Positions 45,761 through 57,191 of a stretch of 64,000 nt of DNA are shown in pieces. The notes under the pieces are model-generated. The model saw nothing but the letters and a program-made list of their open reading frames with translations. It was not told the DNA's origin and ran no database searches. The first letter of the stretch is position 1; each line of letters begins with the position of its first letter. The DNA is from Microbotryum violaceum (taxonomy: Eukaryota), in the NCBI GenBank assembly GCA_001244265.2, contig CDLV01000005.1:2108001-2172000 (forward strand), in the 5' to 3' direction. The position numbers and the translations under genes are program-made.

Positions 45761-48309
45761 TCACTCCCCAGCCCTCTCCTCGAGCGCATGCTGCAATCGA
45801 GCCAAGCTTTCCTCCTTTCCCAACGTTAGGACCGTCATGGGGACACCTGCACCCACCTGAGAGAGAGAGGGAGAGAGAGAGAGAGAGGGAGAGAGAGAGA
45901 GAGAGAGAGAGAGGCCCCACGAAAAACACGTCAGCTGTCTGACCCCCCTCTGAAGAGAACGTAGGAGGCTGCTCACCTTGGTCGCCGTCAACGCATGCCG
46001 AAGCGACGTCATTACGTTCTTACTACTCCCTCCCGGTTTGACGAGCGTGTTGAGTGTCTCAATCATCTTGGGATGCGTCTCGGAAGACCAAATCCAGGCT
46101 TCGTCGGGTAAGGTTTGCAGTAACTCGATCGTGGAAGACAGCGTCTCGCCTGTTGGGCGCAGCGTGCTGAGATGAGCAAGGCCCCGAAGGAGCTTCAGAG
46201 TGCTTGAGCAAGACGTACGATAGATCAACAAAGGCACGCTCTTGGCCATCTGACGCGCCAATTCGGTCGTGTAATCAGGCGGGGAGAAAAAGTAACGTCC
46301 TAGTCGAGGGATGTCGTGGATCGTGTGGAGGCGTTCCTGTCAGTTCGATGGTATCAATCGAATTCAGTGATGTTCCAGATCAAAGCAAGGGAGATGAACT
46401 GACCTTTAAAGCCTCAATCACCTGTCCCAAATAGACCGGATCGTCCGTCTTTTTTCTACTCACGAAATGAGAACACAACCCATCAGCTCTTTATTCACCC
46501 CACTTATCTCCACCATCCAGCGAACTCACGCATCCCCAATCTCCCGCTCTACATTCGCTTTCAACCTCTCCACCATCTCCTTTCTCCCTTCCTCCTCCCC
46601 CAATTTCAGCTTGACATGTTCTCGATTAAGATACTCCAACTTGCTCAAGTTCATCGTCGAGCGATTCTTGTTGACGCCTTCGAGGGAGAACTAGCGTCGT
46701 GCAAAGCACGCATCAGGAGTTGTTCACATCCAAGAAAGACTGCGAACAAGACGTACACGTTTTATCATCTCCTCCATCGTGAGCACATGTCCTTCTTGAC
46801 CCGACGCATCAACGTTGGTCGACGTTGTGGCTTGGGGCGACCAACCCATCAAAGCGACGAAATTCAACAACGCTTCGGGTTCGTAGCCCTTGTCCTATTC
46901 GATCATTTATCAAGTCCCATCCTCAGTTTTTCCATGATGGTAAAGAGGAGAGAGGTATGGCACGTACGATGTATTCTTCCACTCTTACGTCCCCTGCTCT
47001 TTTTGAGAGTTTGGACCCGTCTTGGTTGACCAAGAGAGGAAGATGAGCGAACTGGGGAGGGTCGATACCCAAGGCTGAGTAGAGGGAGAGGTGTTTGGGT
47101 GTTGAGGGCAGCCATTCCTATCACGAACGAGACGAGGGGCGTCAGCGAACTTTTGAAAGTGGGACGCTCTACGATCAGATGGTGTTGCTCACCTCCCCAC
47201 GTAGGACGTGAGTCACCCCCATCGAATGATCATCAACGACGTTCGCGAAATGATAGGTTGGTAGTCCCTCCGTTTTTCGTAGGACGAAATCTTCGATGGG
47301 TAGAGAGGGGTAGGTGATGGTATCGTAGACGAGGTCGTGCTGGGTCATACCACCACTTGAGCTCTGAGAAGGTATGAAGAGGGAGCGTGAGTACAGTCAG
47401 TGATGCCAGAGAGAGAGATGGGGCTCTGACCTTGAACCGAACGACACTCGCTTCGCCTTGATCCAATCTGGCCTGGACCTCCTCCTTACTCAATCCCAAG
47501 CACTTGCGATCATACGTCGCGTTGCTACCCTGTTTTTGTAACAGCTTGCGCGTCGATGCGAGTCGTTCGGCTGTACAAAAGCAGTGGTATGCTTTGCCGG
47601 ACTGTGTGGTGGGGGTTCGGTTGGTCAGGTGGGGGTCTGTTCGGGTTCGGAGCTGGAACTTGGAAGGACGTACGTCGATCAAGGGTTGTAGAAAGGCGTC
47701 GTATATATGCTTTCGTTCTGATTGAGAATATGGCCCGTTTCCACCATCTCGGTAAGGCCCTGCCAGAGAGAGTGATCTCATGCGCGATCAGTCTTTTTGG
47801 CGGAAAGTTCTTTCTCGGAATCGTTTGCGCTGACCTTCATCGTAGTCCAACTTGGCCCATCGAAGGGTCTTGATCAAGCTCTCGACAGCACCTGGCACGA
47901 ACCGAGTCTGTTCAAATTTGCGCAAGCAGGGGAGGAACGACCTTTTGTCAGCTCTGAACCCTACTCGTATGAGGTTCGTGGGGGGGGCTCTACGGACCTG
48001 ATCGGTATCCTCGATCCTCAGGGCCCAAGTTGCGCCGAGTCTTTTAGCAAGTAGATGGTTGTAGAGGACTGTTCGGAGACCACCGAGATGGAGATATCCC
48101 GTAGGGGAAGGGGCGAAACGGAGTTTGGTCGGTTTCTGAGTCGTGGACGGCGTGGATGTGGTTGAGCAATGACGATGGGCGTGACCTTGGCCGCGTGGGG
48201 AGGACCGGATCGGGAGCGAGCGAGATGCGGAGGTAGCTTGAGGGGTGAGACATGATTGGGAGAGTTCGAGTAGGGTCACGGGTAGTCTGTGCCATTTGAT
48301 GATGGACAT
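45761..48309 (-). CDS. MSE1: Mitochondrial glutamyl-tRNA synthetase
   Basis: A presequence-like N-terminus. HIGH region [18 protein letters not shown], then [23 protein letters not shown] and [18 protein letters not shown] (KMSKS-type). Anticodon-domain end LRHALT...VGAGVP...[10 protein letters not shown]. Confidence 0.92.
45859..45913 (+). repeat. (GA)n/(CT)n microsatellite, about 55 bp, in the last MSE1 intron
   Basis: A gagagaga... run with two ggga interruptions; it abuts the 3' splice site at 45857. Confidence 0.95.
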
Positions 48310-48932
48310 GGTTGTTCGCGCCAGCCCCCGATTCGTTCAGAGAGGACCAGGGGGAACAGAGGAAAGGGGGCTCTATTCGGCGCCTATTCTACGGGCACGG
48401 GCTAACCCACGCTTATTCGCCGCCTATTTCCTGCTTAGTCCCTGCTCAGTCGCTGCTTACGGCGCTTGGGCTGAATGGCGCGCGGCGGCTCCGAGCACGC
48501 TTGGCCCTGTTCCCTCCTGCACCGCTTACCTCGCACCGACGACTTGGCTGTCGTTTGTGTTGTCGTAGTTGGCATACACCCCAGCCCTCCGTGATCGTCG
48601 CCCGCATTCGTGCTCTTGTCGGCTCTGTGGCGTTTTGTGTGGTGGTTGCGTTGCGCGTTGGACCGTCCCGACCTGCCGGGACCACATCCCCTTACGACTT
48701 GACGACACCCACACCTACTCGACGATCGACCTAGGACGTATCGACCGGTGTATCTCGTGCTTCGGGTCCAGTCGACACGCCCATTGGACGTACACGACAA
48801 CGCCAGTGACGACGACGACGCGAGTCCAGCAACCCCAAGTCACCCGTGGATCCGCTGTCTACGCCAGCCCGCCCCACTGGATCCGCCTACATCCCATCCC
48901 ACCCTTGATCAAGCGCCTTACCCGTGTTCATC

Positions 48933-51900
48933 ATGAGTAATGGGTTGGCTCATTCCGAGGCGTGAGTGCTCACCTGCCTGCGACGTCCCTGTCGTGCCTG
49001 TCGCCACCTGCTCGCCTCGCTCCTCCCGCTGTCGGCACCGCGCACCACCCACTGCCGCTGGCCCGCGTCGACGGCCACTCGCACGCCCGCGCACCCATCG
49101 GCTCACGACCCACCCACGAACGCGCTCACAGCCTGTTCATTACTGCGTGACCTGACACACACACTTTCTCTCGCCCAACGCCTCCACAGCCCCGTGCGAA
49201 AGGCGCACACGATCCAATTCGGTATCCTAAGCCCTGAAGAGATCAAGGCCTACTCGGTATGCAAGGTCGAGTATCCCGAAACCTACGAGGAGGGCAGCCA
49301 GCGTCCCGTAAGCCCTTTTCTCTTTCCTTGTCGTGCTCTGCCACTTCATCGAATTGGGCTTAGCATGTTTCTTCTCGTTCTTTTCTTGTCTTTGTTTGGG
49401 TCTTCTTCCATGGCTGCGATGCCTTTGTGGCCTCGTCGATTAGAAACCGGGAGGATTGTCCGATCCGCGCATGGGCACGATCGACCGCAACTTCAAGTGC
49501 GCGACATGTGGCGAAGGCATGGCCGACTGCCCCGGCCATTTCGGTCACATCGAGTTGAGCAAGGCCGTGTTCCATGTCGGTACGTGTTGGCCTCCACTCT
49601 GCTGGTTGATGCTTTCGTCATTGGCGCGTGAACGTCGCCCCTAACTCCGGACTCCGCTTTTCCATCGACCAGGCTTCATCAACAAGTGCAAAAAGATCAC
49701 CGAATCCATTTGCGTCCTGTGCGGTAAACTCAAGTCGTCGCCGCACCTCGACCCCCGCCTGGCCGAAGTCGTGCGCTTCGTGCGCGACCCCAAGAAGCGG
49801 CTCGCGATCGTGCACTCGCTCGTCAAGACCAAGAACGTGTGCGAGATGGATGCCGCGATCGATCCGAGTGAACCGGTACCGGAAGGGAAGGAACCTGTCA
49901 GGGGACATGGAGGGTGTGGGCACCAGCAGCCGCAGATCAGGAGGGAGGGGTTGAAGTTGATTATGGTCTACTCGAAAGGGAAGGATGAGGTGCGTCTCAT
50001 CAGGAAAACGGTCGTTGGGGTTTATTCTCTTCATCATGCTGACTCTCTTGCCCCATTTTTCAGGACGGCAATCCGATGCAACCGGACCGTAAACCTCTGA
50101 CACCCACCATGGCCAACGCCTTGTTCCGAAAGATCCCTGCCGAGGACCTCAAGGTCATGGGTCTCAACCCGCTCGAGGCGCACCCTGCATGGATGATTCT
50201 CACCGTCCTGCCCGTTCCCCCACCACCGGTCCGACCTTCGATCGCCGTCGATGGAGGTGCGATGCGAGGCGAGGACGATTTGACCTACAAGCTAGCCGAA
50301 ATTATCCGCGCGAACCAGGTCCTGCGCAAGTTCGAGGAAGAGGGAGCGCCGAATCACGTCATTGCCGAGTTCGAGACCTTGCTGCAATGGCACGTTGCGA
50401 CTTACATGGACAACGACATTGCGGGGCAGCCGCAGGCGATGCAAAAATCTGGTCGACCGGTCAAGTCGATCCGAGCGCGACTGAAGGGCAAAGAAGGTCG
50501 ACTGCGAGGAAACCTCATGGGTAAACGTGTCGATTTCTCGGCACGAACGGTCATTACGGGGGATCCCAATTTGGCGCTTGACGAGGTCGGCGTCCCCTTT
50601 TCGATCGCACGCAATTTGACCTACCCCGAACGCGTGACGCCGTACAACATCTCGTACTTGCAAGAGCTCGTGCGTAACGGGCCGAACGAGTACCCCGGAG
50701 CGCGGTACATCGTGCGTGATACGGGTGATCGCATCGATTTGCGGTACAACAAGCGCGCCGACACGGCGTTGCAATTTGGGTGGATCGTCGAACGTCATCT
50801 TAAGGATGGTGATTTGGTCCTGTTCAATCGACAGCCGAGTTTGCACAAAATGTCCATGATGGCCCATCGGGTCAAGTTGATGCCGTTCTCGACGTTCCGA
50901 CTCAACCTTTCTGTCACGGTAAGTACATGCAAGTGGCTTTACTGGATGCGACTCGAGCTAGTTGCTGACCAATTGTCCCTGTTATTTCACCTTCACAGTC
51001 ACCTTACAACGCCGAGTACGCTCTCCCGGGCGAGGAGAGTGTTTGATGAGGCTGTATCAAGGCTGACAATGTATTATGTTCTGACTGCGCAGTTTCGACG
51101 GTGACGAAATGAACTTGCACGTCCCGCAGTCGGAAGAGACGCGAGCCGAGTTGATGCAGATCTGCGCCGTCCCTCGCAACATCATCTCACCGCAAGCCAA
51201 CAAGCCCGTCATGGGTATTGTGCAAGACACGCTGTGCGGTGTGCGCAAGTTCACCCTCCGTGATTGCTTCATGGATCGCGACTTTATCCAAAATATCCTG
51301 CTGTGGGTTCCGGAATGGGATGGCATCATCCCTCCGCCCGCAATCCTTAAGCCCAAGCAGCTGTGGACGGGCAAGCAGATTTTGTCGATGTGCATCCCCA
51401 AAGGAATTAATTTGTACCGCGCGCCCGATCCGGCCAGTCCGAACCCCGTCGAGGACAACGGCATGTGGATCGAAGACGGCGAGATCATCTACGGCATTGT
51501 CGACAAAAAGACTGTCGGCGCTTCCCAAGGTGGTATTATCCACATCATCTTCCGTGAAAAGGGTCACGAGGTGTGCCGCGATTTCTTCTCGGGTGTACAA
51601 AAAGTCGTCAATTATTGGTTGTTGCACAATGGATTCTCGATCGGGATTGGGGATACCGTTCCTGACAAGGGGACCATGGAGGCCATCACGGGTTTCATCG
51701 ACGCAGCCAAGAACCAGGTTGCGGAGATCATACAGATGGCGCAAGAGGATAAGCTCGAACCCGAGCCCGGTATGTCGATCCGAGAATCTTTTGAGAGCAA
51801 GGTCAACAAGGCGCTCAATTCGGCGCGTGATTCGTCCGGTCGCTCGGCCGAAAAGTCGCTCAAGGGGGACAACAACGTCAAGCAGATGGTCGTGGCCGGT

Positions 51901-54900
51901 TCGAAAGGATCGTTCATTAACATCTCGCAAATGTCGGCTTGTGTAGGGCAACAGATCGTCGAGGGCAAACGTGTGCCGTTTGGGTTCAAGCATCGTACTT
52001 TGCCCCACTTTACCAAGGACGATTACTCGCCCGAAGCGAGGGGTTTCGTCGAAAACTCGTACTTGCGAGGTTTGACACCGCAAGAGTTCTTCTTCCACGC
52101 CATGGCCGGACGAGAAGGATTGATCGATACGGCCGTCAAGACGGCCGAGACGGGGTACATCCAACGTCGTCTCGTCAAGGCGCTCGAAGATGTCATGGTT
52201 GCATATGATGGCACCGTACGCAACTCGCTCGGCGACGTCGTGCAGTTCGTATACGGTGAAGACGGCATGGACGGTGCTTTTATCGAGGAGCAGGTCATTG
52301 ACCCGATTCGGTTGTCGGACGAGCGCTTCGAGAAGCGGTACCGCCTCGATGTCATGGATCGCAAGTGGACGTTCCGCAGCGGTGCGCTGCAGGTTGGCTT
52401 GATCGATCAGGACGACTACGAGCAGGTGCAAGCCTTGCTCGATGACGAGTACGAGCAGTTGAAGGAGGACCGGAAGATGTTGCGCGAGTTCATCTTCCCC
52501 AATGGTGACGCGACCGTCTTTTTGCCCGTCAATGTGCGTCGCACGATCCAGAACGCGCAGCAGATCTTCCACATCGACTTCCGGAAACCGAGCGACCTGC
52601 ACCCCGAGGTCATTCTGCGCGACGTCACAGCTTTGCTCGAGCGGTTGGTCGTCGTGCGCGGTTCGGGTCGATTGGTCGAGGAGGCGCAGGCGAACGCGAC
52701 CTTATTGTTCAACATCTTCTTGCGGTCCAACTTTGCCGTTCGACGTGTTATCGAGGAGCACCATCTGAATCAAGAGGCGTTCCAGTGGGTGCTGGGAGAG
52801 GTCGAGTCCAAGTTTAAGGCCTCGCTCGCGGCGCCGGGTGAGATGTGCGGTACGCTTGCGGCGCAATCGATCGGAGAACCGGCGACGCAGATGACGCTCA
52901 ATACGTTCCATTACGCCGGTGTGTCGTCCAAGAACGTGACGCTCGGTGTGCCGCGTCTCAAGGAAATTATCAACGTCGCCGTAAACCTCAAGACGCCGTC
53001 GATGACGGTCTACCTCCAACCCGAGATCGCTCGCGACATTGATCTTGCCAAGGAGGTGCAGACGATGTTGTCGTACACGACGCTCAAGACGATCACGGCC
53101 TCGACCGAGATCATCTACGACCCCGAGGTCAACACGACCGTCATCACCGATGATATCGAATTCGTCGAGGCCTTCTTCGCGATCCCCGACGAGGACGTCG
53201 AAGCGAACTTGCATCGTCAGTCGCCTTGGTTGTTGAGGTTCGAGCTTGACCGCGCCAAGATGCTCGACAAGAAGCTCGAGATGTCGTTCGTAGCGGGCAA
53301 GATCGCCGAAGTGTTTGAACAGGACCTGTTCGTTATTTGGTCCGAAGACAACGCCGAGAAGCTCGTCATTCGTTGCCGAGCTTTGAACGAGGAAGGCAGA
53401 GACAAGGAGGATGGTGCTGAAGAGGCTGAGGACGCCGAGGAGGACATCTTCCTGAAACAGCTCGAGGCGTCGATGCTGTCGACAATCTCGTTGCGAGGTG
53501 TCGAGGGCATCGAGCGTGTGTTCATGCTGCAGCACAAGCGCAACGTCATCACCGAATCGGGCGAGTTCGACAACCCAACGGAGTGGGTACTCGAAACCGA
53601 CGGTATCAACTTGCGCAAGGTCTTGTGCGTCGATGGTGTCGACCCCACACGGACAGTGTCCAACTCATGCGTGGAAGTCTTGCAAGTGCTCGGTATCGAA
53701 GCCGCTCGTGCATCGGTCCTGCGCGAGTTGCGCAACGTCATCGAGTTCGACGGTTCTCGTGTCAACTACCGTCATTTGAGCATGTTGACCGATATCATGA
53801 CGAACCGAGGCTCGCTCATGGCCATCACGCGTCACGGTATCAATCGATCCGACACGGGTGCGCTCATGCGGTGCTCGTTCGAAGAGACGGTCGAGATCTT
53901 GTTCGAAGCCGCGGCGACGGGTGAGATCGATTACTGCACCGGTGTGGCAGAGAACATCTTGCTTGGCCAAGTCGCGCCGATGGGGACGGGTGCGTTCGAG
54001 CTCTCGCTTGATATGGAGATGCTCAAGGAGGTCGTCATCGATCATCGATTGCCCATGGCCGGCATGAACGCCTACGGCAACGATGGTGGCTTGACGCCGG
54101 GTGGAGGAGGAATGACGCCGTACGCTGATGCGAACGACAGTCGAACGCCGATGCATGTCCCCATGGATGGTCTGGCCAACTTCTCGCCCCTGTACGACTC
54201 GTCGGCAGGCTACGACCAAGGCGGAGGATTGACGCCGATCTACGGTGGCGCATCTCCTGCTTACGGAGGCGCTTCGCCCTTCGGTGGTGGGGCTTCGCCT
54301 GGGTACTCGCCCTCTTCGCCGTTCCCTGGCTACTCGCCTGTCTCGCCAGGCTACAACCCTCGCTCACCAGGTGGTGCGCTCGGAGGTCGGTCGCCTGCTG
54401 GGTACGCGCCCCAATCGCCTTGGGTTGATCGACTTGCGGGAGGTGGGGCAACGTCGCCGTCGTACTCGCCCACATCGCCGATGATTAACATGTCACCGGC
54501 GTCCCCGCGCTTCTCCCCCGCTTCTCCGGCCTGGAGTCCTTCGTCGCCCTCGTTCTCGCCTGCGAGTCCATCCTTCTCCCCGGCTTCGCCTTCGTTCAGC
54601 CCTTCGTCGCCGTCGTTCAGCCCTGCCTCGCCGAGGTATTCGCCGACGAGTCCTTCGTTCTCCCCTTCGAGTCCCAAGTACTCACCTGTAAGTGATAATG
54701 ATCATTCCCGACCTCTTCAAAGTTATCCGTGCTGACACTGGTATCCTGATCTTTCGCTCGCAGACCTCGCCGCAGTACTCTCCCGTGCGCTTTCTTCGCT
54801 CCCGAGGTGACCTGTTTGCGACTGCTACGGTCGCTGACGCGTTGCGCATCTTTTCTCATAGACCTCTCCTCGTTACTCCCCAACGAGCCCGACCTATTCC

Positions 54901-55285
54901 CCAGCTTCGCCAGCTTACAGTCCCGTGAGTGATTTATCCATGACGAGGTGGTCGGTCTGACGTTTCCAAGGCTGACTGAGCAAATTCTCTTACACTCAGA
55001 CGAGCCCCAAGTATTCGCCGACGTCGCCGCAGTATTCGCCGACGTCACCGCAATACAGTCAGTCATTGCCTGCGTACAATTGGCCCGTCTCATGTCCTCC
55101 GACGCGGAGCCGCTGACCTCTTGTGTGCTCTCCTCTCCGCTTCAGGCCCTACCTCCCCATCTTACAGCCCCACCTCCCTGGCTGCTGCGCGCCCCGGCAA
55201 CGCCGCCGCCGGATCGAGCTCGTCCAACGCCAACGCGAGCGCCTCGGCGTCGCGTTATTCAAGCAAGTCGAGCTGGCAACGATGA
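48933..55285 (+). CDS. RPB1: RNA polymerase II largest subunit, 11 exons (48933-48961, 49190-49307, 49444-49579, 49673-49989, 50064-50918, 50999-51015, 51093-54687, 54764-54784, 54862-54924, 55000-55057, 55146-55285)
   Basis: [40 protein letters not shown] and spliced [14 protein letters not shown]. Bridge helix [30 protein letters not shown], trigger loop TLNTFHYAG, and a heptad CTD. Confidence 0.98.
54493..55177 (+). repeat. RPB1 CTD heptad array (about 18 tandem heptads) interrupted by four introns
   Basis: [126 protein letters not shown]. Confidence 0.9.
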
Positions 55286-55715
55286 TCGTCGGGATCTCGT
55301 TCCGCCTGCTGCGATCTCCTTTCGCCCCTCCTCTCCTATCCCCCCATCGCCTCGCGCGCCTTGACGGCTGCGGAAAAAAACTGGCCGCCCCGCCACCCTC
55401 GTCTTCCTCGGAATATCTTGTGCTTGTTTTGCAATGCCCTTTGCTAATGTAATGTCATAAAAAACACCGAACGACCAGCTAACGTCGGTACAAAGAGTTT
55501 GGGCTCGGACTAGCGCCAGCATTTCCGACGAGGACCATGCTTTTAATTTTCGAGGCTTTTAGCTTCATGCGATCGACGATGCCTCTCAAGTCCACGGATT
55601 AAAGCGATTAGAACTAAGGGCGTGTTCGGCTGGAAAAGCACTTTTGGTAGGACGTTTTCACTTTGAAAGCTCCAACTTTAGCCGAGGCCCGCGCGCCTCT
55701 TGAATCGACCCCTTT

Positions 55716-57191
55716 ATGATGCCCGAAGGACAAAGATTCGAAATGCAAGCAAACCCCGGTTTTTTATCTACATTTCGCGCTCCTCCGTTTCCCTTGAACG
55801 ACCGACCACGACCAAGCTTGCCAGAGTTCGGCCCTCCAAACTCATTGGGGGGCACGCCCTCGCCTAGGATGAATGCTGATTCGAGTGCGATGGATCCTCG
55901 ACCCTTACCACCGGGATGGATGACGCAGTGGAACGAAAGATGTGGGTGTTAACCTCCCTGCGAGGCTGCAACCAGCGGATCACGCTTGAACCCGTCGAAT
56001 ACGGAGCTGACGATCTTGTTGGGATTCGCTTTCGGGAGCAACGCCTCGTTTGCTCGAATAATTAGACCGAACATGGTTCTACATCAACACCAATGTCAAT
56101 CCACCTGCTTCGGTGTGGGAACATCCCTCGGATATGGCAGAGGCCGGACCGGTGCGGGTGCCCGTGAGCAGGAGCTCGGAAATTGACCTTTCGACGAGAG
56201 GGTCCGTGAGCGGCAGCGCGCACGCCAACGAGGTCTTCGACGACGATCACGCCGGAGTGGCGGTACGTCGACGCGAGGATTACGACGTCGTTTCGGACGA
56301 CTTCTTCGGGAACCTCGACGGCGTTGCGGGCCACCACCTCCCGCTCCTTCGAGTCGAGTTCGAACACCATCCTTCAACACTGGCTACACATCCGCCGTCC
56401 ATGATGAGGCCTTTTGAACCAGGTCAGTCATTTACAAGCTCCTCCGGATCTCCGATTGGCGCTCCTTCGGGCCCGATGTCGCTCGCTTTCTCCTGCAACT
56501 CCGGGCCGTGCCTTCCGGTTCCACGCACGGGCTCGAGCGCGGAGCGCACAATGTCTCCTCCTGTCTTCATCGATCAGGGGTACGCCGAGCTTTTGGCAAT
56601 CGATGTCGCCGTTGGTTTCTCTTCTTCGGATAAAGGTGGAGTTGTTTGCTCGCCGGCTCGCGGATTAGTCCGACAAACCTCGGTTAAACACGCAAACTCC
56701 GAAACTCACCGAGACAACTTCCGGGTTTTTTTTTTCTAGGTGCGACGGCGGGTGCGCATTACTGTTACGTCCTCGATCATCCGGACCTGTATGAGCTCTC
56801 ACCGTATCAACTCGTTCGAGTACAACAAGCCGCCGCCTTATACCAGCAGCAGCAGCAGCAATCATCACTGCAGCAGCAAGAACCACGCGGCTTTCTCTCC
56901 ACATCAATATCGGGCTCGAGTCCAACGACGACGACAGCGATTCCGAGGCCCGTAGCGCCGCCGGCGCCGCACGGGCACTTGAGTTATCCGTCAATTTGGC
57001 CGCTAGCTTTTCAGCCTCAACAACATCATCCACTTGACGGGGGAGGATCGATACTTTCGATGCATCCTTTGAATAGGATGGATCCAGTGCATAGTTTTAA
57101 TCATGCACATTTACGGCATCACCATGACTCTTTGACTGGGCAATTTGTTCCGAGACCGTTCGGCGGCAATTTCAACGGCGGGGGGGATTAG
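55716..57191 (+). CDS. WW-domain protein (3 exons; the start may instead be 55869)
   Basis: Spliced WW domain PRPLPPGWMTQWNER|YRTWFYINTNVNPPASVWEHP. A phase-1 intron CCAG|GTCAGT...TTTTTCTAG at 56422-56739 joins a Q-rich last exon ending GGNFNGGGD*. Confidence 0.7.

What the first reader, a model, noticed from the sequence alone, without database searches (positions are those of the whole stretch)
54688..55145. RPB1 CTD built from heptad-register symmetric exons: possible splicing control of CTD length
Seen in sequence: three consecutive introns (54688-54763, 54785-54861, 54925-54999; 76, 77 and 75 nt) are all phase 0 and all fall at the same heptad position (Y-S-P|T-S-P-x). They bound a 21-nt exon encoding one heptad unit (TSPQYSP) and a 63-nt exon encoding three. 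Skipping either or both removes 1, 3 or 4 heptads with frame and register intact. Retaining the first intron hits TGA at 54733-54735 and deletes nearly the whole Tyr1 block. Established: CTD length and composition govern co-factor recruitment and Pol II clustering. Inference: the architecture arose by duplication of exon-plus-intron units and may let Pol II adjust its own CTD by alternative splicing.
Basis: partly seen in the sequence, partly recalled or inferred. Interest (0 to 1): 0.72.

Follow-up and report, generated by a model that had tools for sequence, protein, structure and literature searches.

The report
Heptad-register introns in Pol II tail gene
In an anther-smut fungus (Microbotryum) the gene segment for the repetitive tail of RNA polymerase II is cut by three introns at exactly the same spot of the seven-residue repeat; they are real and are removed in every transcript assembly seen, and relatives show the same kind of in-register intron runs, so this looks like a by-product of repeat duplication, not a switch for tail length.

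Summary
The RPB1 CTD of this Microbotryum window has introns at 54688-54763, 54785-54861 and 54925-54999. All three are phase 0, directly after Tyr-Ser-Pro, and they bound a 21-nt and a 63-nt exon. A fourth intron (55058-55145) is phase 1, inside the Ser2 codon.

Assembled RNA contigs from 3 of the 4 runs laid carry exactly these junctions. None of the 4 shows an exon-skipped form.

Three related Microbotryomycetes loci from metagenomes show the same design more strongly. One has 7 of 7 CTD introns at a single heptad offset. Another has 6 at one offset, then 3 at another. The third has 4 of 5 at one offset. The offsets differ between lineages. Across all four genes, 18 of 22 neighbouring intron pairs share an offset.

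In one relative (L003), introns in a run are clearly similar to each other (z about 11). This supports duplication of heptad-plus-intron units. The window's own introns show no such similarity.

No evidence supports control of CTD length by splicing. The best reading is ordinary constitutive introns multiplied in register. I found no paper describing this (8 searches).

The parts
48933..55285 (+). [quoted passage not shown]
   Evidence: Pfam Rpb1 domains 2-7. One search threaded public model P0001 onto the window. One search gave the spliced 3' end.
50999..51015 (+). 17-nt micro-exon encoding SPYNA(D) of the catalytic NADFDGD motif, flanked by introns 50919-50998 (phase 0) and 51016-51092 (phase 2)
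   Evidence: Read by eye against the P0001 protein. No RNA was laid on this part.
51093..54687 (+). Large exon: core domains 3-7, the linker and the proximal CTD half, which is rich in Phe/Trp-Ser-Pro heptads
   Evidence: The X16 contig is colinear over 53200-54687.
54688..54763 (+). CTD intron I1, 76 nt, phase 0 after Tyr-Ser-Pro (offset 9 in the 21-nt heptad unit)
   Evidence: Junction 54687>54764 is present in contigs of X16 and X6. In X3 it is listed as 54687>54767 with 3 replaced letters.
54764..54784 (+). 21-nt exon encoding one heptad unit, TSPQYSP
   Evidence: Present in the spliced contigs of X16, X3 and X6.
54785..54861 (+). CTD intron I2, 77 nt, GTGCGC..TAG, phase 0, same offset 9
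   Evidence: Junction 54784>54862 is present in X16, X3 and X6.
54862..54924 (+). 63-nt exon encoding three heptads ([21 protein letters not shown])
54925..54999 (+). CTD intron I3, 75 nt, phase 0, same offset 9
   Evidence: Junction 54924>55000 is present in X16 and X3. The X6 loose end matches 55000-55019.
55000..55057 (+). 58-nt exon (not symmetric; skipping it shifts the frame)
55058..55145 (+). CTD intron I4, 88 nt, phase 1 inside the Ser2 codon (offset 4). It is one base away from the offset-5 last intron of all three relatives.
   Evidence: Junction 55057>55146 is present in X16 and X3. Comparison with relatives.
55146..55285 (+). Last coding exon: two heptads plus the non-repeat tail ending ...YSSKSSWQR*
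   Evidence: Identical to the tail of public protein P0122.

Best explanation
These are ordinary spliceosomal introns of the RPB1 gene of a Microbotryum species, and they are removed constitutively. Three of them sit at the same heptad position because the CTD-coding DNA is a 21-nt tandem repeat. Such a repeat grows and shrinks by unequal recombination or slippage. When the duplicated unit contains an intron, the intron is copied in register. This produces runs of same-phase introns separated by exons of 21 x n nt. The intron copies then diverge, while the heptad exons stay under protein selection. Each short intron is recognised on its own (intron definition), so 21-nt exons cause no difficulty. 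The fact that exon skipping would be in frame is a by-product, not a regulatory device. Shown here: gene identity, intron boundaries, their removal in RNA assemblies, the register lock in the window and in three relatives, and similarity between introns of a run in one relative. Inferred: that the window's own three introns arose by unit duplication, which would predate the genus, and that splicing is constitutive under all conditions.
For: (1) Junctions in RNA contigs. X16 (one 5940-nt contig, depth 183) and X3 (5506 nt, depth 456, about 97% alike) each cross all four junctions in a single contig. X6 crosses the first two. No alternative junction is listed in any of the 4 runs laid.

(2) Public protein P0122 (M. 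lychnidis-dioicae) has exactly the fully included CTD, and Pfam PF05001 matches it.

(3) Relatives. L001 is 94% identical to Rhodotorula graminis P0010. It has 7 of 7 CTD introns at phase 2 in the Ser2 codon, with internal exons of 21, 21, 105, 42, 63 and 21 nt. Its spliced translation equals the annotated P0010 tail except for one extra heptad. L005 is 92% identical to Phenoliferia P0011. It has 6 introns at offset 8, then 3 at offset 0, then 1 at offset 5, with five 21-nt exons. L003 has 4 introns at offset 5 with two 21-nt exons.

(4) Run structure. 18 of 22 neighbouring intron pairs share an offset.

(5) Direct trace of duplication. L003 introns 2/3 and 2/5 give z 11.0 and 10.5 among 351 pairs tested, against at most 5.8 for the cross-species pairs in the top-15 listing (alignment). 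Three in-register L003 introns also share an unusual GC donor.

(6) The same gene has a 17-nt exon in its catalytic motif, so micro-exons are routine here.

(7) The mis-spliced public model of M. intermedium (P0124) still contains the units KYSP|V.., TSPQYSP and [21 protein letters not shown]. This suggests the same exon units exist across the genus.
Against: The window's own introns give no sign of common descent. None of the 6 pairs is significant; the best, I2-I3, has z 2.2 with a shuffle fraction of 0.056. No window-window pair is among the top 15 of 351. The window's offset for I1-I3 (9) is not seen in the heptad arrays of the three relatives, which use 5, 8 and 0. Homology with their introns is therefore not shown, and independent gain cannot be excluded. 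The L003 similarity includes a long T-run, which inflates scores against mononucleotide shuffles. The L003 and L005 models rest on reading frame and splice signals only, without RNA. They need three and one apparent GC-AG introns respectively, and L005 also needs a 13-nt exon. Constitutive splicing is judged from assembled contigs of three runs, which cannot show minor or condition-specific isoforms. The X1 contigs run unspliced through I1, I2 and part of I3 at depth 3-4. Whether X1 is DNA or RNA is not on record.
Confidence: 0.7

Rival explanations
1. One reading: the 21-nt and 63-nt exons are cassette exons, and the cell tunes CTD length (minus 1, 3 or 4 heptads) or makes a truncated CTD (I1 retention) by regulated alternative splicing.
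For: The arithmetic is right. Skipping either or both exons keeps frame and heptad register, and I1 retention stops at 54733-54735. I2 has a weaker-looking donor (GTGCGC) next to the micro-exon. Relatives keep many single-heptad exons, so the capacity is widespread.
Against: None of the 4 runs laid shows a skipping junction. The two full-length RNA contigs (X16, X3) are fully included. GTGCGC/GTGCGT is a common donor in the relatives' CTD introns, so it is not a sign of weakness. Fungal splicing is held to be intron-defined, with retention rather than skipping as the failure mode (PMC3925392, passages). Between the window and the 97%-alike relative (X3) the CTD shows no length difference. The register differs between lineages, as expected for a neutral by-product.
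Confidence: 0.06
2. The register lock comes from independent intron gains plus a filter, not from duplication. Either introns insert or survive preferentially in a few codon contexts of the Tyr-Ser-Pro half of the heptad, or selection keeps only introns in register with their neighbours, because pairing a donor with the wrong acceptor then still gives a working CTD (buffering of splicing errors).
For: All 26 introns inside the heptad arrays of the four genes use only offsets 0, 4, 5, 8 or 9, which all lie in or at the edges of the Tyr-Ser-Pro codons. The window's introns show no mutual similarity. The window's offsets 9 and 4 lie one base from the relatives' 8 and 5, which suggests that a preferred neighbourhood is re-used.
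Against: Offsets come in contiguous runs (6 then 3 in L005; 7 in L001). A general site preference does not predict this. The introns within the L003 run are similar to each other, which shows copying in at least one lineage. The exon flanks (CCT|GT, CCC|GT, TC|GT) are not classic AG|G proto-splice sites.
Confidence: 0.17
3. Coincidence: three of four introns of this one gene happen to share a position.
For: If only five offsets are usable, at least 3 of 4 introns at one offset has p = 0.136 for the window alone.
Against: Relatives repeat the pattern with 7 of 7, 6+3 and 4 introns in register. 18 of 22 neighbouring pairs are equal, p 8e-10 even at 1/5 per pair.
Confidence: 0.03

Closest known systems
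Fibrillar collagen genes with 54-bp (and 45/99/108-bp) exons that each start with a Gly codon (recalled textbook knowledge, not checked in a call)
   Same: A tandem-repeat protein domain is encoded by short symmetric exons. Exon lengths are multiples of the repeat unit, and all introns sit at the same point of the repeat. This is classically explained by duplication of an exon-plus-intron unit.
   Different: Here the unit is a 21-nt heptad of an essential transcription enzyme, in a fungus with 50-170-nt introns. Exons go down to a single repeat (21 nt). The register differs between related lineages (offsets 0, 5, 8, 9).
Lineage-specific expansion and contraction of Pol II CTD heptads by tandem duplication (the CTD evolution literature; Stiller and Hall 2002 is cited in PMC8090853, seen, but the paper itself is not held)
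   Same: The CTD array changes by duplication of heptad-coding DNA, and different lineages carry different repeat variants. L001 differs from R. graminis P0010 by exactly one heptad.
   Different: In the passages and listings I could read, that literature treats the protein repeats. I found no statement that introns are copied with the heptads or lie in register (8 searches). Older gene-structure papers in subscription journals could not be searched.
Cassette micro-exons of animals that are skipped in frame under regulation
   Same: Very short symmetric exons whose skipping keeps the reading frame.
   Different: Alternative use defines that class, and it was not seen here in any of the 4 runs. 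Fungal splicing is intron-defined (PMC3925392).

Membership tests
[quoted passage not shown] | Rpb1 core domains (Pfam RNA_pol_Rpb1_1 to _7) | tested here: met
   The large exon matches Rpb1 domains 2-7 above the curated cut-offs. The best database hit is a Microbotryum RPB1 model, 100% identical over residues 800-1201 of the exon.
[quoted passage not shown] | C-terminal array of YSPTSPS-type heptads (Pfam PF05001) | tested here: met
   The RNA-supported spliced translation carries the array. It is identical to the tail of P0122, which matches PF05001 at 63.9 bits against a cut-off of 20.3. The large exon alone, with its Phe-type heptads, gives no PF05001 match.
Canonical U2-type spliceosomal introns | GT..AG ends, a branch-like CTRAY motif near the 3' end, and removal from the RNA | tested here: met
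   4 of 4 CTD introns have GT..AG and a CTRAY motif 13-38 nt from the 3' end. All four junctions are present in the contigs of X16 and X3.
Repeat-unit exon arrays made by exon-plus-intron duplication (collagen-like design) | All introns of the run share phase and repeat position, and exon lengths are multiples of the unit | tested here: met
   I1-I3 are phase 0 at offset 9, with exons of 21 and 63 nt. The relatives behave likewise.
Repeat-unit exon arrays made by exon-plus-intron duplication (collagen-like design) | Introns of a run are recognisably similar to each other (paralogous) | tested here: not met
   In the window, none of the 6 pairs is significant and none is in the top 15 of 351. 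The feature is met only in relative L003 (z 11.0 and 10.5). Old duplications would have lost this signal, so the test is weak against the model.
Alternatively spliced cassette exons | Transcripts both with and without the exon | tested here: inconclusive
   None of the 4 runs shows a skipping junction, and 3 show inclusion.

The most novel reading that the evidence does not exclude
In Microbotryomycetes the Pol II tail is encoded by modules of one or a few heptads plus an intron, and these modules multiply in register. Selection keeps the register because any donor can then pair with any acceptor and still give a working CTD. Low-level or condition-dependent skipping of these heptad exons would then yield RPB1 isoforms with different CTD lengths, so the enzyme that couples transcription to splicing would have its own tail length set by splicing.
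Probability: 0.07. Interest if true: 0.8.

Novelty: new member of a known kind. Interest (0 to 1): 0.42.

Why it matters
The CTD is one of the most studied repeat domains in biology, and its length matters for transcription activation (PMC8090853, abstract seen). This work adds three points.

First, in a whole fungal class the CTD-coding DNA carries runs of introns locked to the heptad register, with exons as short as one heptad. This is a clean natural example of introns multiplying by tandem duplication inside a coding repeat. It can be dated and tested with more genomes.

Second, automatic gene models fail on this architecture. Three of the four Microbotryum species with a public RPB1 model in the cluster (silenes-dioicae, saponariae, intermedium) and one Phenoliferia model have a frameshifted, non-heptad tail. 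CTD surveys based on predicted proteins will therefore miscount repeats in these fungi.

Third, the appealing idea of CTD length control by splicing has no support in the data at hand.

Tried and rejected
- The whole genome of the window is not held, so genome-wide intron statistics could not be made.
- RNA holders: no listed holder is on record as RNA. The nature of the runs was judged from whether their contigs are spliced. X1 gave only unspliced short contigs at depth 3-4, and whether it is DNA or RNA is unknown, so it is not used either way.
- No skipping junction was seen in the contigs.
- Intronisation of heptad DNA: I compared each intron with its own gene's CTD exons. In the window, none of the 4 CTD introns and none of the 6 control 5' introns were significant. 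A 26-nt direct-repeat family joins the I1 3' end plus the micro-exon to exonic heptads (D5). It is explained by the exonic part, so the lead was dropped.
- A 16-nt match between window I2 and L005 intron 2 (z 5.8) is no higher than other cross-species pairs, so it is not taken as orthology.
- Structured RNA in the introns: Rfam gave 0 matches at E up to 1 over 54500-55500.
- Earlier notes of this scan: 3 look-ups gave nothing on this subject. The eight notes returned concern giant-virus or Naegleria CTD-like repeats.
- Literature: 8 searches found no paper on the intron register of the CTD. PMC3335468 (passages) and PMC4362643 (0 occurrences of intron, exon or duplication) say nothing on it. 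PMC122907 is not held. Supplementary files were not consulted.
- L004 ends before the CTD, L006 is a weak match and L002 duplicates L001's tail. These three of the 6 loci were left out of the intron counts.
Full report
**What is there**

[quoted passage not shown] The 3.6-kb exon 51093-54687 matches Pfam Rpb1 domains 2 to 7. It is 100% identical, over the part searched, to a public Microbotryum RPB1 model (P0001). The organism is therefore a Microbotryum species, an anther-smut fungus of the class Microbotryomycetes.

Downstream of the large exon the reading frame breaks four times. The breaks are:

| Intron | Coordinates | Length | Ends |
|---|---|---|---|
| I1 | 54688-54763 | 76 nt | GTAAGT..CAG |
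| I2 | 54785-54861 | 77 nt | GTGCGC..TAG |
| I3 | 54925-54999 | 75 nt | GTGAGT..CAG |
| I4 | 55058-55145 | 88 nt | GTCAGT..CAG |

Splicing at these sites yields an uninterrupted heptad array that ends ...[12 protein letters not shown], followed by a short non-repeat tail (...YSSKSSWQR) and the stop at 55283-55285. I1, I2 and I3 each follow a complete Tyr-Ser-Pro and precede Thr. They are phase 0 at offset 9 of the 21-nt unit. They bound a 21-nt exon (TSPQYSP) and a 63-nt exon (three heptads). I4 is phase 1, inside the Ser2 codon (offset 4).

**RNA evidence**

No run is on record as RNA, but contigs of three of the four runs laid are spliced.
- X16: one 5940-nt contig, identical to the window, depth 183, carries all four junctions.
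- X3: one 5506-nt contig from a relative about 97% alike, depth 456, carries all four. Its first junction is listed as 54687>54767 with three replaced letters.
- X6: a short contig carries the first two junctions, and its 20-letter loose end equals 55000-55019.
- X1: only short unspliced contigs at depth 3-4. Whether X1 is DNA or RNA is unknown.

None of the four runs shows a junction that skips the 21-nt exon, the 63-nt exon or both. Because contigs drop rare variants, this shows that the fully included form is the dominant one, not that it is the only one. The public M. lychnidis-dioicae protein P0122 has exactly this fully included tail, and Pfam's CTD repeat model matches it.

**Is the register lock more than chance?**

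For the window alone the case is modest. At least 3 of 4 introns at one of 21 offsets has p = 0.0087. If only the five offsets seen in this clade are usable, p = 0.136.

The decisive evidence comes from relatives. A scan of metagenome contigs with the end of the large exon gave six loci. Three of them hold a complete CTD region of a related fungus.
- L001 is 94% identical to Rhodotorula graminis P0010.
- L005 is 92% identical to Phenoliferia P0011.
- L003 is an unnamed Microbotryomycete, about 83-84% identical to several.
- L002 repeats L001's tail, L004 ends before the CTD and L006 is weak. These three were left out.

I built models by eye from frame, splice signals and heptad continuity, then checked them by translation.

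| Locus | CTD introns (offset in the 21-nt unit) | Notes |
|---|---|---|
| Window | 9, 9, 9, 4 | Exons of 21, 63 and 58 nt |
| L001 | 5 x 7 (phase 2 in the Ser2 codon) | Internal exons of 21, 21, 105, 42, 63, 21 nt |
| L003 | 8 (in the linker GYSP), then 5 x 4 | Two 21-nt exons |
| L005 | 8 x 6, then 0 x 3, then 5 | Five 21-nt exons and a 13-nt exon; one further phase-0 intron lies in the linker |

The L001 spliced translation equals the annotated R. graminis tail except for one extra heptad. That is independent support for the L001 model.

Across the four genes, 18 of 22 neighbouring intron pairs share their offset. The binomial p is 1e-20 at 1/21 per pair and 8e-10 at 1/5. The pairs are not fully independent, because some introns are probably orthologous. 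Register-locked runs of CTD introns, with single-heptad exons, are thus a feature of the class and not a quirk of this window. The register itself differs between lineages.

**How the runs arise**

Offsets come in contiguous runs. This fits local tandem duplication of a unit made of heptad(s) plus an intron. Such duplication is an expected accident in a 21-nt tandem repeat.

There is a direct trace in L003. Among 351 intron pairs from the four genes, L003 introns 2/3 and 2/5 stand out at z 11.0 and 10.5. The cross-species pairs in the top-15 listing reach at most 5.8 (alignment). Part of the L003 signal is a T-run. Three in-register L003 introns also share a GC donor.

For the window itself no such trace remains. 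None of the 6 pairs is significant; the best, I2-I3, has z 2.2 with a shuffle fraction of 0.056. The mis-spliced public model of M. intermedium still contains the same exon units. If the three introns are copies, the duplication is therefore older than the genus. The introns do not look like decayed heptad DNA either.

The last intron lies just before the final heptads in all four species. It is at offset 5 in the three relatives and offset 4 in the window. I suggest, weakly, that this is one old intron that shifted by one base in Microbotryum. The window's offset 9 was not seen in the heptad arrays of the relatives.

**Does it regulate CTD length?**

Nothing supports this.
- The dominant transcripts are fully included in both Microbotryum sources.
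- The CTD shows no length difference between the window and the 97%-alike relative.
- The gene also splices a 17-nt exon inside the catalytic NADFDGD motif (50999-51015), so very short exons are routine for this spliceosome.
- GTGCGC-type donors are common in the relatives.
- Fungal splicing is held to work by intron definition, under which errors give retention, not skipping (PMC3925392, passages read).
- Retention of any of the four CTD introns gives a premature stop or a frameshift.

The idea remains possible at a low level, and only raw junction counts can settle it.

**Comparison with what is known**

The design works like the classic collagen case, where exons are multiples of the repeat unit, all start at the same repeat position, and are explained by unit duplication (recalled, not checked in a call). 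It also fits what is said about CTD growth by tandem duplication.

I found no paper stating that CTD introns lie in heptad register or multiply with the heptads. Passages of PMC3335468 and PMC4362643 say nothing on it. Old gene-structure papers in subscription journals, and all supplements, could not be seen.

I therefore class this as a new member of a known kind. It is a tidy and apparently undescribed example, of interest for intron evolution and for anyone counting CTD repeats from predicted proteins. It is not a new mechanism.

**Verdict**

- Observation: confirmed.
- Duplication origin: plausible and supported by relatives, but not shown for the window.
- Splicing control of CTD length: unsupported.

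Noticed in passing
window 54764-55285, compared with proteins P0001, P0121, P0124, P0122 and P0123: Public RPB1 models of M. silenes-dioicae, M. saponariae and M. intermedium are mis-spliced after TSPQYSP or KYSP and end in frameshifted, non-heptad tails. The M. saponariae model (2149 aa) also runs on into the next gene. The M. lychnidis-dioicae gene has the right tail but is split into two models.
   Followed up: partly
window 50919-51092: A 17-nt micro-exon (50999-51015) encodes SPYNA(D), so an intron splits the first Asp codon of the catalytic NADFDGD motif. In all, the gene has six introns in its first 2.2 kb, none in the next 3.6 kb and four in the last 460 nt of coding sequence.
   Followed up: partly
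L003 5298-5377, 5546-5621, 5643-5723; L005 787-860: The only in-frame, in-register models need apparent GC-AG introns (donors GCAAGC, GCAAGT, GCACGT in L003 and GCAAGC in L005). Three of them lie in one run at one offset. There is no RNA to confirm them.
   Followed up: partly
L005 1336-1348: The predicted gene model needs a 13-nt exon (completing Pro, then Ser-Ser-Pro-Lys) between an offset-8 intron and an offset-0 intron. It marks the switch between two intron runs.
   Followed up: no
window 54490-54687 and the relatives' proximal CTD: The proximal half of the CTD uses Phe (once Trp) instead of Tyr at heptad position 1 (SPSFSPA and similar) in the window and in all three relatives. Pfam's CTD repeat model does not match this part.
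   Followed up: no
proteins P0002, P0015, P0059, P0111 (unnamed relatives, 74-81% identical): Read-through ORFs from contigs of other relatives end or derail at heptad-related spots. Examples are ...SPTSPM followed by a 57-nt in-frame intron-like insert...KYSP-stop...GYSP-stop and ...SPRFS-CV. These hint at further CTD or linker introns at offsets 0, 8 and 5.
   Followed up: no
window 54802-54817 versus L005 737-752 (approximate): A 16-nt near-identical stretch (15 of 16 bases) lies between window intron I2 and L005 intron 2. Its z of 5.8 is no higher than other cross-species pairs.
   Followed up: partly
window 47233-48336 (- strand) and 55704-56739 (+ strand): Neighbouring ORFs look like parts of other genes. 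The upstream minus-strand frames resemble an aminoacyl-tRNA synthetase, and a downstream frame has a WW-like PPGW motif. This is judged by eye from the translations and was not searched.
   Followed up: no
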